Of a stretch of DNA of 64,000 bases, positions 51,001-54,000 are shown piece by piece; the stretch's first letter is position 1, and every line of letters begins with the position of its first letter. The stretch is from a virus (taxonomy: Duplodnaviria > Heunggongvirae > Uroviricota > Caudoviricetes). The stretch is taken from the IMG/VR virus record IMGVR_UViG_2541047426_000030, one strand, 5' to 3'. Position numbers: made by a program.

Positions 51001-54000
51001 ATACGGGAAATGGTTCATCGACAAATCCCCGTATTCGGATAAGCAGGTAGAAAGCTTCCGATACAATAATCGGGGAGTACGGAAGATTGAAGAAATCCTG
51101 GACGCGGAGAACAACGCAGAATTCGGAACCTGATATCCTCCACTCTCCGACGCCGCCAGAATGACGGCGCGGTGGTTAAGCATGAGGCGAAATTTCTGCC
51201 GGGCGGTATTTTGTTGAGAGATGAGATACGTCAACTTCTCTTTCCGCTTTTTCAAGGCTCCATGCCGTCTGGAGACGAATCCATGAAGACGGAGTTCCCC
51301 CCAGGACAGCAGCGAGACGAACAGCCATTTCAGGAGATATTGTCGCATTACCTGAAACCAGTCGCTGAACAGTGGAAGGCGCGACATCAAGCGCTCTTGC
51401 CAGTTCCCTGATTCCAATATTCTGATCTTCCAGAATATCAGCAATAATTTCTCCAGGATGAGGGGGGGTAAACATCGCCATTAGTGGTAATCCTCGTAGT
51501 TAAACGAAGCGGATCTGGAGTTTTTCCCTGTAGCACGGGCGAATTTTTTCAACGTTGCAAATGATGGCCTTATTTACACTCAATGGTTAATTCTTTCCTG
51601 TTAAATCCCTGTTCCTTTAAAATGTCTTTATATCCATTTTTACATAGGGCATTGGCTTTATCATAGCATACTCCCCATGGTGTAGCGGCACCACAGGCAA
51701 TGATGTACTGTTCCTTTTCATCTCCGCGATTTATTTTCGTAGTGGTAGTGCATCCTGATGTTGCCATGCAGAAAATTATCAAATAAAAGAACCTTGCTAT
51801 GATGTTCATTATCGGATCTCTAATAGGTGCTGCAAGTGACACTATTCCCATACCTGGAGCAGTTTGTTAGTGTGGCACTTCATATGCCATGCAGATTAGT
51901 TCCGGGCGCGAATCTCAGAGCGAACCTGTGAAATGGAGTGCCCTTTGCCTAGGTTCTCACGAATAGCGTCGAGTGGCGGCGCGGCTGAGTGTATTAACCA
52001 CGCTTCCATTGCTTTGTCGCGTTCATTCAGTGCACGAAGCCCTTCACGAATAACTTCGCTTTCTGAAGCGTATGCACCGGAAGCCACACGGGCGCGCACC
52101 ATGTCAGCCATTTCGTTGGTTAATGTAATGCTGAATTGTTGGGTTGTACGCATGTTAAACCTCACTGAGTAGGATAGAACACTATTCGATGATAGCACGC
52201 CACTTGTTGACGACAACACATATCCGGGATTATATTCTTCGCACGGTCGAGTTGACCGTCGGGATTCGAACCCCGGATAGAAACCGCGACAGAGACACGC
52301 CGCGAGCGTGTTTTTTATTGTCGTATGCACGCGCACATCTGAATTATGGTGGGGCGTATAGGGGAGCTGAAAAGCTCGCCGGTTGGTTTCCCGGTAGTTC
52401 GAACCCTGTACGTCTCACCACCCGATGATTCGAACCTAACGGTGGTGATAGTTTAGAAACCACTCGAGGGCGTCATAATGACAACTCAAGTTTCTGTTGA
52501 AACACTCTCCACGATTACTTACAAGCAGATCCCCGTTATCACTACCGAACTTTTGGCGCACCTTTACGGCACAGAAGCTATTCGTATTCGCCAGAATCAC
52601 CACGAAAACAAAGGTCGTTTCATTGAGGAAAAACACTTCTTCAAACTTGAAGGTGAAACTTTACGTGAGTTCAAGCACAGAGTAGCTTTTAACTACTCTG
52701 TGAAAATCGCCCGTAACGTTCGCTCCCTCATCCTCTGGACAGAACGCGGCGCAGCCCGTCACGCAAAAATGCTCGAAACCGATCGGGCGTGGGAAGTGTT
52801 CGAAAAACTGGAAGACTGCTATTTCAGTCAAAAAATCCCAGAACAACTTCAGCTTCCAGAATCAACACTATCTATCAACTACCCTCTATCGTGGTTTTCA
52901 GAGCACCACCCCTACTCCATGATGAGCTATGTTGATCGAAAAACTCTTAACCTGGACGTTTCTGTACTCTTCGACATGCCAAGCCCAACCATGCGTATCC
53001 TCAACGAACTACACAGCAAGGGCTATAACGTCGATGCGGCTGTCGCTGAATTTAACGCCTTCAAACATCTGACGGAAGAAATGCGCCGCACGCTACAGGA
53101 TATTTCAAGACTGTCAGATCGAAATTCCCGAAAAGGCTTCTCGTTAAGCCTGTAACTTCCCCTACCATCCCCGACATCCCGTCGGGGTTTTCATATCTGG
53201 AGACAAAAATTTGAAACAGATCGCTTTCTACAGGCGTTCTGGAAGGCCCGGTGCCTTCCGTGGGTTAAAAGAACGCGTCACCTGGATGATTCAGTCTCGT
53301 GGTCGTCCTGTTACTGGCAGTGAAATAGCAGAGAAATTTGGTGTTTCACTTTGCGAGTTCAACAAGGTAGCTCGCGGCCTGACAAAGGGCAGTAAGGTTG
53401 TGAAAATAAAGGCTTCAGAACCATTCACCACAGACACCGGAATCGTTGATCGCTTTTTCTCCCTCGAATCAAATCCTCGTCGTGACACACCTCGCTCACG
53501 CAATGCCGTTCCTCCATTCAGTCGCAGAAGCCGTGAACACGCAGCAAAAAACTGTCGCGAGGAATACGTGCAAAAGGCCGAACGCCGTCGCCGACTGATT
53601 AAAGCAGGACTTTACATTGATGAGTTTGAAAACGCGCTATGACGAAAAAATACACTCTCATTTACGCAGATCCCCCCTGGACATTCCGAGACAAAGCAAC
53701 CGATGGTCAACGCGGTGCAAGTTTTAAATATCCGGTCATGAGTCTTCTGGATATCTGCCGCCTCCCGGTATGGGAACTGGCAGCCGATAATTGCCTGTTG
53801 GCTATGTGGTGGGTGCCTACACAACCACTTGAAGCATTGAAGGTTGTAGAAGCGTGGGGCTTTCGTCTGGTGACGATGAAAGGATTAACCTGGAACAAAT
53901 GCGGGAAAAGACAGACCGACAAGCTGGTCATGGGTATGGGTAGCACCACTCGCGCTAACAGCGAAGACTGCCTTTTTGCAGTGAAAGGAAATCTGCCTGA

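What the first reader, a model, noticed from the sequence alone, without database searches (positions are those of the whole stretch)
51176..52153. Antitoxin-only locus: parD-like and higA-like genes with truncated toxin stubs flanking a small lipoprotein gene
A ParD-type antitoxin is followed by only a 7-codon stub (MAYEVPH*) where parE should start. A HigA-type antitoxin is preceded by a start-less ~39-codon frame ending in the HigB-like ...DYH tail, with the stop overlapping the higA ATG (TAATG coupling). Between them is a Cys-rich lipoprotein gene. Phage-borne antitoxins without toxins could neutralise host toxin-antitoxin based abortive-infection defences, or the lipoprotein may be a new partner.
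Basis: partly seen in the sequence, partly recalled or inferred. Interest (0 to 1): 0.65.

Follow-up and report, generated by a model that had tools for sequence, protein, structure and literature searches.

The report
Toxin-less antitoxin scar in Stx2 phage
Two intact antitoxin genes (ParD, HigA) that have lost their toxins flank a small lipoprotein gene in a Shiga-toxin prophage; this is a recombination scar at a cassette-swapping hot spot, it has already been reported for identical phages, and no anti-defence role has been shown.

Summary
parD (51896-52153) and higA (51176-51481), both on the minus strand, pass NCBI's curated antitoxin models. No toxin gene is found in any frame of the 64 kb. 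The window is an Stx2a prophage that is 100% identical at this locus to phages PA2, VT2phi_272 and phi346. A 2025 paper already reports "two orphan type II antitoxins, ParD and HigA" in phi346 and phi349, with the same anti-defence speculation.

New here:
- The locus is a four-piece mosaic. parE is cut after codon 5, and higB is reduced to its last 6 codons.
- The 305-bp lipoprotein cassette comes from the immI/sieA region of P22-like phages. It still carries the tail of its former upstream gene.
- Sibling phages hold intact parDE, higBA or an HTH/RelE pair at the same slot, beside an isrK-C4-antirepressor module.

Most likely the lipoprotein moron captured the parD promoter, and the antitoxins are survivors of toxin loss. 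A counter-defence or anti-addiction role is possible but untested. The idea that the lipoprotein is a new toxin partner is contradicted. Interest is low to moderate.

The parts
51176..51481 (-). higA: intact HigA-family (HTH-XRE) antitoxin gene, 101 aa
   Evidence: It scores 87.2 bits on TIGR02607 (cutoff 47.7) and 4.8e-10 on HTH_3. It differs by 1 aa (T5N) from the HigA of phage GER2, which is paired with an intact HigB. Against GER2 there are 3 synonymous and 1 non-synonymous differences.
51481..51503 (-). higB remnant: last 6 sense codons (NYEDYH) plus a stop that overlaps the higA ATG; keeps the GAGGA ribosome-binding site of higA
   Evidence: DNA homology to GER2/L011 higBA (98%) ends at 51503. 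GER2 HigB ends ...AYILNYEDYH.
51498..51567 (-). Remnant of a third TA module: 3' end (about 23 codons plus stop) of a POCJ13-type HTH antitoxin gene, frameshifted in this window by a 1-nt deletion at 51520
   Evidence: It is 94% identical to L004 2501-2571 and L012 1501-1571, where the gene is intact and preceded by a RelE/ParE-family toxin. PSFATLKKFARATGK is 100% identical to residues 81-95. The indel is shown.
51570..51809 (-). Small lipoprotein gene (79 aa precursor; lipobox ...MATSG|C20, Thr at +2; 4 further conserved Cys), a phage moron of unknown function
51820..51876 (-). Remnant of the lipoprotein's former upstream gene (last 18 codons, ATLTNCSRYGNSVTCSTY*, of a 121-aa protein)
   Evidence: tblastn of the L005 121-aa protein gives 78% identity over its last 18 residues at 51876-51823. 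DNA homology to L005/L006 (84.6%) spans 51867-51563. The L005 protein ends ...NCSKYGNNVTCSTY*.
51867..51890 (-). parE stub: MAYEVPH*; only the first about 5 codons are parE-derived
   Evidence: ArgO145 ParE starts MTYEVIITPEAE.... Homology to ArgO145 runs from 53500 down to 51877.
51896..52153 (-). parD: intact ParD-family (RHH) antitoxin gene, 85 aa, with a GAGG ribosome-binding site
   Evidence: It scores 53.4 bits on TIGR02606 (cutoff 46.2), 1e-7 on PF03693 and 3.5e-58 on phrog_6494. Residues 1-47 are identical to almost all E. coli-phage ParDs (one variant has I9V). Residues 48-85 differ at 13 positions from the paired alleles (counted against ArgO145).
52189..52216 (-). Promoter-like site upstream of parD (TTGTCG-16-TATCAT with TG), back to back with the isrK promoter-like site
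   Evidence: This is a consensus scan only. No promoter-like site lies on the minus strand inside the lipoprotein cassette, and no terminator-like site lies on the minus strand between parD and higA.
52243..52425 (+). Context and right border of the hot spot: isrK sRNA (52243-52316) and C4 antisense RNA (52342-52425), which precede the ORF6N antirepressor gene (52478-53155)
   Evidence: Rfam scores are isrK 53.0 bits (GA 50) and C4 70.1 bits (GA 45). ORF6N scores 1e-19. The same RNA-antirepressor module borders intact higBA (L001), intact parDE (L002) and the mosaic (L010); the higBA locus L011 and the HTH/RelE locus L012 are likewise followed by an ORF6N gene.

Best explanation
The locus is a recombination scar in a cargo slot of lambdoid/Stx phages. 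The slot lies immediately upstream of, and divergent from, an isrK-C4-antirepressor module. Sibling phages carry one complete type II TA cassette there: parDE, higBA or an HTH/RelE pair.

In this lineage, illegitimate recombination stacked pieces of three such cassettes around a 305-bp lipoprotein cassette. That cassette was imported from the immI/sieA region of P22-like phages. All three toxin genes were removed, and two full-length antitoxin genes remained.

Inferred steps:
1. Only recombinants that kept the antitoxin could survive toxin protein already present in the cell. This is post-segregational-killing logic, and it would explain why the scars are antitoxin-only.
2. The surviving unit is one operon, PparD -> parD - lipoprotein - higA. 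The lipoprotein gene has no promoter of its own and is expressed from the ParD-autoregulated promoter in the lysogen. The protein is exported and lipidated. Because residue +2 is Thr rather than Asp, it would be sorted to the outer membrane.
3. The lipoprotein is the selected cargo, probably acting on the cell envelope or in superinfection exclusion. ParD mainly supplies promoter and operator control.
4. HigA, and ParD's toxin-binding tail, are recent leftovers. At most they give incidental immunity to ParE or HigB carried by competing prophages.
For: Shown:
- Identity to known Stx2a phages.
- Breakpoints at 51877, 51563-51567 and 51498-51503, with 5-6 nt overlaps between adjacent homology blocks.
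- Intact parDE in ArgO145 and intact higBA in GER2 and S19-651, and an intact HTH/RelE pair in S1-KEN-03-A in the same slot between the conserved left-flank genes and an ORF6N antirepressor gene; POCJ13 carries the same intact pair.
- The lipoprotein cassette carries the 3' tail of its former neighbour gene.
- In P22-like phages the homologue lies between gp16 and the tailspike gene. In one case it lies directly downstream of an Mnt-like RHH repressor gene.
- No toxin in any frame of the window.
- One promoter-like site upstream of parD, none inside the cassette, and no minus-strand terminator-like site between parD and higA.
- The lipoprotein is under purifying selection (dN/dS 0.11 in the mature part) and belongs to a conserved lipoprotein family.
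- The window-type parD allele is orphan in 42 of 42 E. coli complete genomes and 7 of 7 IMG/VR loci. The 84-87%-identical alleles are paired with ParE in all 53 such E. coli records listed (of 323 found) and in 73 of 73 IMG/VR loci.
- All copies of the mosaic are at least 97.4% identical overall and at least 99.3% across the genes, so the toxin loss is recent.
- Orphan antitoxins are very common in E. coli genomes (PMC10790755).
Against: - Both antitoxin ORFs are intact in every copy examined, and each keeps a ribosome-binding site. The 23-nt higB remnant is exactly what preserves the higA site. This is also what selection for antitoxin function would produce.
- The 1.1-kb unit higA-lipoprotein-parD occurs with the same junctions in at least two other prophage backbones (L010 in the nin region of an O22:H8 prophage, and L008). 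It therefore spreads as a unit.
- Promoter and terminator calls are consensus matches only. No expression data were examined.
- The lipoprotein's function is unknown.
Confidence: 0.6

Rival explanations
1. Counter-defence or anti-addiction. The phage keeps ParD and HigA to neutralise ParE and HigB toxins of TA modules carried by resident, competing prophages or plasmids. These toxins would be released during infection or when the resident element is displaced.
For: - The ORFs are intact and their ribosome-binding sites are retained.
- HigA is 100 of 101 residues identical to a HigA that is paired with HigB.
- Related parDE occurs in 328 of 5426 complete E. coli genomes, mostly STEC, including sibling Stx phages such as ArgO145.
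- A lysogen of the mosaic phage (O111:H8 05-3004) also carries a resident lambdoid prophage with intact parDE.
- Orphan antitoxin-like counter-defences are established for DarTG (PMC11825919).
- The authors of phi346 and phi349 raised the same idea.
Against: - 37 of 42 lysogens have no related parE, and 0 of 42 have the related higB. There is no significant enrichment (Fisher p = 0.11, and the lineages are not independent).
- The matching higB is rare, in 22 of 5426 genomes.
- ParD's toxin-binding half differs at 13 of 38 residues from all paired alleles, and its cognate ParE has never been observed.
- There is no evidence that these prophage parDE or higBA modules abort phage infection.
- DefenseFinder does not list them, and no classical type II antitoxin has been verified in this role.
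- The module is too young for ORF intactness to indicate selection.
Confidence: 0.25
2. Domesticated regulators. ParD (RHH) and/or HigA (HTH) now act as transcription factors for phage or host genes. For example, ParD could act at the divergent parD/isrK promoters and so tune the isrK-C4-antirepressor switch.
For: - The parD and isrK promoter-like sites overlap back to back at 52189-52236, around a short inverted repeat TGTTG-n4-CAACA at 52205-52218.
- The ParD DNA-binding half shows 8 synonymous and 0 non-synonymous differences against ArgO145.
- Regulatory roles for orphan antitoxins are discussed in the literature.
Against: - The same promoter arrangement exists in ArgO145, which has intact parDE, so it is not special to the orphan state.
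- The native higBA promoter region, which would hold HigA's operator, is absent from the window. GER2 homology upstream of higB resumes only at about 52207-52221.
- The inverted repeat has 5-bp arms and could be chance.
Confidence: 0.1
3. New partnership. The lipoprotein is a novel toxin or effector controlled by ParD and/or HigA, forming a new TA-like module.
For: - The lipoprotein gene sits where parE was, directly downstream of parD.
- In one P22-like contig the homologue overlaps the stop codon of an RHH (Mnt/Arc-like) gene.
Against: - The cassette boundaries are recombination accidents that carry fragments of unrelated genes.
- Homologues occur alone or with unrelated neighbours in phages, other mobile elements and a bacterial chromosome.
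- The protein has a signal peptide and lipobox and is exported, out of reach of cytoplasmic antitoxins.
- The RHH neighbour in the P22-like phage is the immI repressor Mnt type, not ParD.
Confidence: 0.03

Closest known systems
Orphan ParD and HigA antitoxins reported in Stx phages vB_EcoP_phi346 and phi349 (Microbiol Spectr 2025, PMC12502783); same locus in PA2, PA8 and VT2phi_272
   Same: The sequence is identical: 100% over 51100-52250 for phi346, PA2 and VT2phi_272. The paper reaches the same conclusion, 'two orphan type II antitoxins', and offers the same anti-defence speculation. RefSeq annotation already names both genes.
   Different: The paper does not mention the lipoprotein (0 occurrences). 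In the passages retrieved it does not describe the toxin stubs, the third antitoxin remnant, the origin of the lipoprotein cassette or the hot-spot context. Those points are worked out here.
parDE type II TA modules (ParD RHH antitoxin with ParE gyrase-poison-type toxin), as in phage ArgO145 and many STEC prophages
   Same: The parD gene, its promoter region and the first 5 codons of parE are homologous. ParD passes TIGR02606 and PF03693.
   Different: parE is deleted from codon 6 onward. The ParD C-terminal (toxin-binding) half is a divergent allele never seen with a toxin.
higBA type II TA modules (toxin gene first, HigA HTH antitoxin second), as in phage GER2 and E. coli S19-651
   Same: HigA is 100 of 101 residues identical. 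The stop/start overlap and ribosome-binding site are preserved.
   Different: Only 23 nt of higB remain, and the higBA promoter region is gone.
Phage-encoded orphan antitoxin-like counter-defences (DarG-like/NADAR AdfB against DarTG1; T4 Dmd against RnlA/LsoA)
   Same: It is a phage gene related to, or acting as, an antitoxin, carried without a toxin (PMC11825919; references cited).
   Different: Those cases are experimentally shown and occur in lytic phages. Here nothing is shown, the phage is temperate, and the genes are classical type II antitoxins left behind by visible deletion of their toxins.
Anti-addiction modules (chromosomal antitoxin homologues that protect against post-segregational killing by a mobile element's TA; from my own knowledge, Saavedra De Bast et al. 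2008)
   Same: The logic fits: an antitoxin kept on one replicon could neutralise a homologous toxin from a competing element. Related parDE sits on co-resident prophages.
   Different: This is untested here, and cross-neutralisation is doubtful for the divergent ParD tail.
Phage moron lipoproteins (T5 Llp, phi80/N15 Cor, lambda Bor) and the P22 sieA/immI cargo region
   Same: It is a small lipobox protein carried as non-essential cargo. Homologues sit in the P22-like gp16-tailspike cargo region next to immI genes.
   Different: No sequence or fold similarity to any characterised protein was found. Any exclusion or envelope function is inferred from context only.

Membership tests
HigA-family antitoxin (TIGR02607 / HTH_3) | Scores above the curated threshold of the family model over its full length | tested here: met
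   TIGR02607 gives 87.2 bits against a cutoff of 47.7, covering model positions 1-80 of 81. HTH_3 gives 4.8e-10.
HigA-family antitoxin (TIGR02607 / HTH_3) | Encoded immediately downstream of a HigB/RelE-family toxin gene | tested here: not met
   Only the last 6 codons of higB remain. No HigB is found in any frame of the window.
HigA-family antitoxin (TIGR02607 / HTH_3) | Neutralises its toxin and represses the higBA promoter | not testable with these tools
   Capacity is inferred only from 100/101 identity to the GER2 HigA, which is paired with HigB. The higBA promoter region is absent from the window.
ParD-family antitoxin (TIGR02606 / PF03693) | Scores above the curated thresholds, with an N-terminal ribbon-helix-helix | tested here: met
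   TIGR02606 gives 53.4 bits against a cutoff of 46.2. PF03693 gives 32.7 bits against 21, over residues 6-51.
ParD-family antitoxin (TIGR02606 / PF03693) | Followed by a ParE-family toxin gene | tested here: not met
   A 7-codon stub, MAYEVPH*, is all that follows. The stub shares M-YEV with ParE of ArgO145. There are no ParE hits in the window.
Complete type II toxin-antitoxin system | Adjacent toxin and antitoxin genes in one operon | tested here: not met
   Three TA modules are represented, and none has a toxin.
Phage counter-defence by orphan antitoxin | The phage carries an antitoxin homologue without a toxin | tested here: met
Phage counter-defence by orphan antitoxin | A cognate toxin system is present in hosts and restricts the phage, and the antitoxin relieves the restriction | tested here: inconclusive
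   Related parE is in 328 of 5426 E. coli genomes and related higB in 22 of 5426. 5 of 42 lysogens co-carry parE and 0 of 42 co-carry higB. Restriction and relief cannot be tested here.
Bacterial lipoprotein (Lgt/LspA substrate) | N-terminal signal peptide ending in a lipobox with an invariant Cys | tested here: met
   The PROSITE-type pattern matches residues 10-20. Cys20 is invariant in alignments of 22 and 56 homologues. Lipidation itself is not testable here.
Known superinfection-exclusion or envelope lipoproteins (Llp, Cor, Bor) | Sequence or fold similarity to a characterised member | tested here: not met

The most novel reading that the evidence does not exclude
The two toxin-less classical type II antitoxins are kept by selection as a dual antidote. 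They would let this Stx2a phage infect, lysogenise or displace prophages in STEC hosts whose resident lambdoid prophages carry parDE or higBA at the same hot spot. This would be the first verified case of classical type II antitoxins used as phage counter-defence or anti-addiction genes. The co-transcribed outer-membrane lipoprotein would be a new exclusion factor.
Probability: 0.15. Interest if true: 0.6.

Novelty: already known. Interest (0 to 1): 0.3.

Why it matters
If the antitoxins were functional antidotes, this would show that temperate phages can disarm the TA modules of competing prophages. They would do so simply by keeping the antitoxin half of a cassette they have overwritten. That bears on how Stx phages spread among STEC lineages.

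As it stands, the locus is mainly a clear worked example of cassette turnover at a lambdoid-phage cargo hot spot, and of why such turnover leaves antitoxin-only scars. It also flags an uncharacterised but widespread family of small disulfide-bonded lipoproteins that phages carry as cargo.

Tried and rejected
- **Hidden toxin.** I looked for one by alternative frame or start, using tblastn of three toxins against the whole window. None was found.
- **The start-less frame as a decayed HigB.** Rejected. Only 6 codons are HigB-derived. The rest is another antitoxin's tail read through a lineage-specific 1-nt deletion.
- **In-situ decay of the ParD C-terminus after toxin loss.** Rejected as the main cause. 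The whole gene, including the perfectly conserved N-terminal half, shows high synonymous divergence (dS 0.30 and 0.73) with dN/dS of 0 and 0.27, while the flanks are about 99% identical. It is therefore an imported, formerly functional allele.
- **tRNA-like sequence at 52200-52460.** It is not a tRNA. It is isrK plus C4 RNA.
- **Plasmid origin of the cassette.** No match was found.
- **The 121-aa neighbour gene in P22-like phages.** It looked BamE-like by eye, but Pfam gave no hit, so I make no claim.
- **Enrichment of parE in lysogens.** Not significant.
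Full report
**What the window is.** The 1.15 kb around the finding is 100% identical to Stx2a-converting Oslovirus phages PA2, VT2phi_272, Stx2a_F765 and vB_EcoP_phi346. It is at least 99.8% identical to dozens of other Stx2a phages. RefSeq already annotates the locus as [quoted passage not shown]. A tRNA-Arg(cct) at 56460 suggests, though I did not check it, that the window is a prophage with a host flank.

**Checking the observation.** All genes of the locus are on the minus strand.
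- parD (51896-52153, 85 aa) passes TIGR02606 (53.4 bits, cutoff 46.2) and PF03693.
- higA (51176-51481, 101 aa) passes TIGR02607 (87.2 bits, cutoff 47.7).
- Five nucleotides after the parD stop lies ATG GCA TAT GAA GTG CCA CAC TAA (MAYEVPH*, 51867-51890).
- The frame upstream of higA ends ...NYEDYH, with TAATG start/stop overlap.
- Between them is a 79-aa ORF (51570-51809) with a canonical lipobox and Cys20.
- tblastn of HigB, ParE and a RelE-type toxin against all frames of the 64 kb finds no toxin.

The antitoxin-only description stands.

**Anatomy, worked out against relatives.**
- Phage ArgO145 has intact parD-parE at the homologous place. Its ParE starts MTYEVIITPEAE. Homology to the window runs from 53500 down to 51877, so parE is cut after codon 5.
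- Phage GER2 and E. coli S19-651 have intact higB-higA. HigB ends ...AYILNYEDYH. Homology to the window stops at 51503, so only 23 nt of higB survive. Those 23 nt contain the higA ribosome-binding site.
- The stretch 51498-51567 is 94% identical to the 3' end of a different HTH antitoxin gene. That gene is intact and preceded by a RelE/ParE-family toxin in Shigella phage POCJ13 and E. coli S1-KEN-03-A.
PSFATLKKFARATGK equals residues 81-95 of that antitoxin. The window lacks a T at 51520 that the three other copies aligned (L008, L009, L010) all have, and this fuses the reading frame by accident to the six HigB codons.
- The stretch 51563-51867 is 84.6% identical to a cassette found in P22-like phages between the gp16 ejection-protein gene and the tailspike gene. 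There the lipoprotein gene follows a 121-aa gene by 10 nt. The window still carries the last 18 codons of that gene (ATLTNCSRYGNSVTCSTY*) upstream of the lipoprotein gene.
- Adjacent homology blocks overlap by 5-6 nt at two junctions, as expected for illegitimate recombination at microhomology.

**The hot spot.**
- To the right of parD lie a promoter-like site for parD (52216-52189, minus strand) and, back to back with it, one for isrK (52207-52236, plus strand). Next come isrK (52243-52316), C4 antisense RNA (52342-52425) and an ORF6N antirepressor gene.
- The same RNA-antirepressor module, or at least its ORF6N gene, follows the intact higBA, the intact HTH/RelE pair, the intact parDE and the mosaic in different prophage backbones.
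- This is therefore a cargo slot in which TA cassettes are exchanged.
- A second isrK-C4 copy in the window (40283-40470) precedes a Rha-type gene. The position upstream of it holds a BsuBI/PstI-type restriction endonuclease and an Eco57I-type methylase.

**Distribution.**
- The mosaic, with identical junctions, is present in 42 of 5426 complete E. coli genomes (O157:H7, O111:H8, O43, O22:H8 and others) and in 45 GenBank phage records.
- The exact ParD and HigA proteins are indexed in thousands of assembly blocks. They were in this arrangement in every place shown (8 and 10).
- In E. coli O22:H8 strain 154 the same 1.1-kb unit sits in the nin region of a different prophage, and its flanks diverge outside 51151-52244. 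Another copy lies next to a different integrase. The unit therefore moves as a block.
- Variation among copies is tiny: 2 synonymous and 2 non-synonymous differences in higA, 1 and 1 in parD, and 0 and 2 in the lipoprotein gene. Neither selection nor decay can be read from it.

**The antitoxin alleles.**
- HigA differs from the HigB-paired GER2 protein by one residue.
- ParD is different. Residues 1-47 are identical to almost all E. coli-phage ParDs (one variant has I9V). Residues 48-85 carry 13 substitutions relative to the otherwise nearly uniform paired alleles.
- Against ArgO145 the N-terminal half has 8 synonymous and 0 non-synonymous differences. The C-terminal half has dN/dS of 0.27. 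The flanking DNA is about 99% identical.
- This is therefore an old allele shaped by purifying selection and imported by recombination, not a product of decay in place.
- It is never seen with a ParE. It is orphan in 42 of 42 E. coli genomes and 7 of 7 IMG/VR loci, whereas the 84-87%-identical alleles have ParE next to them in all 53 such E. coli records listed (of 323 found) and in 73 of 73 IMG/VR loci.

**Testing the antidote idea as far as possible.**
- ArgO145-type parE occurs in 328 of 5426 genomes. GER2-type higB occurs in 22.
- Using concatenated queries, 5 of the 42 mosaic carriers have a parE elsewhere and none has the higB. This is not a significant enrichment (p = 0.11, lineages not independent).
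- One carrier, O111:H8 05-3004, has the intact parDE on a resident long-tailed lambdoid prophage. Co-residence does therefore occur.
- In most lysogens the antitoxins have nothing related to neutralise. Any benefit would have to arise on entering new hosts.
[quoted passage not shown] The authors speculated that they counteract host toxins, stated that no classical antitoxin is verified in such a role, and reported that DefenseFinder does not flag them (PMC12502783).
- Orphan antitoxins are abundant in E. coli generally (PMC10790755).
- Orphan antitoxin-like counter-defence is proven for DarTG (PMC11825919).

**The lipoprotein.**
- Close relatives are very few (3 clusters).
- Full HMMER and a profile search reveal a broad family of 70-100-aa proteobacterial lipoproteins: 129 representatives, and at least 389 clusters. 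The lipidated Cys and four further Cys are invariant, and there is a GFNRKE motif.
- It has no Pfam, NCBIfam, PADLOC or PDB relative.
- Homologues are found in a P22-like immI region directly after an Mnt-like RHH repressor gene, in other mobile elements, and alone in a Denitromonas chromosome.
- dN/dS of the mature part against the P22-like copy is 0.11, so it is a working protein.
- Thr at +2 predicts outer-membrane sorting. This rests on the established Asp+2 rule and is my inference.

**Interpretation.** The best-supported reading is a recombination scar in which a lipoprotein moron replaced the toxins.
- The moron has no promoter-like site of its own, and no minus-strand terminator-like site lies between parD and higA. 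It is most likely expressed from the ParD-controlled promoter as parD-lipoprotein-higA.
- Antitoxin-only scars are what post-segregational-killing logic predicts: recombinants that lose the antitoxin while toxin protein is still present die. This is inference.
- A real antidote or anti-addiction role is the main rival (about 0.25).
- A regulatory role is possible (about 0.1).
- The idea that the lipoprotein is a new partner is contradicted.

The finding is correct in substance but already published and annotated. The added value here is the junction-level anatomy and the distribution data.

Noticed in passing
window 52243-52425 and 40283-40470: There are two copies of an isrK sRNA plus C4 antisense RNA pair (Rfam). 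Each lies just upstream of an antirepressor-type gene: ORF6N at 52478-53155 and Rha-type at 40525-41172. The region upstream of both copies holds addiction- or defence-type cargo.
   Followed up: partly
window 37244-39663: An Eco57I-type methylase (489 aa) is followed by a BsuBI/PstI-type restriction endonuclease (317 aa). This is a type II R-M system upstream of the second isrK-C4 copy.
   Followed up: partly
window 51520: There is a single-base indel polymorphism. This window lacks a T that L008, L009 and L010 carry, and many Stx2a phage records align one base longer. It lies in the non-coding antitoxin remnant and creates the misleading open frame.
   Followed up: yes
window 51896-52010 (parD 3' half): The ParD allele has 13 C-terminal substitutions and is found only in the toxin-less state. 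Within that orphan group the C-terminus shows four protein variants among 7 IMG/VR loci (ENLGKGH/ENPGKGH/EKPGKGH; ...RARN/RARK). Its original ParE partner was not found.
   Followed up: partly
window 51570-51809; loci L005, L007, L013-L015: This is an uncharacterised family of small lipoproteins with no Pfam entry. It has at least 389 clusters, four invariant Cys and a GFNRKE motif. It is spread across Proteobacteria and is repeatedly carried by phages, including in the P22-like immI/sieA region downstream of an Mnt-like repressor gene.
   Followed up: partly
window 52205-52218: A short inverted repeat, TGTTG-acga-CAACA, spans the overlapping -35 elements of the divergent parD and isrK promoter-like sites. 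It is a candidate shared operator, but it is short enough to be chance.
   Followed up: no
window 28757-29016, 23978-24094, 30422-30673, 56460-56534: Other Rfam and tRNA hits are AsxR (anti-stx2 sRNA), STnc100, an ALIL pseudoknot, three tRNAs (Arg, Arg, Met) and a tRNA-Arg(cct). The ALIL pseudoknot marks a frameshift site of the kind annotated within IS3-like IS1203. By analogy with known Stx2 phages I read the three tRNAs as lying upstream of stx2 and the tRNA-Arg(cct) as marking the prophage integration site, but I did not check either point.
   Followed up: no
L194 34834-35396 (E. coli O111:H8 05-3004): A lysogen of the mosaic phage also carries an intact parDE on a resident, IS-riddled long-tailed lambdoid prophage between ompW and yciI. 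An orphan ParD and a complete ParDE therefore coexist in one cell.
   Followed up: partly
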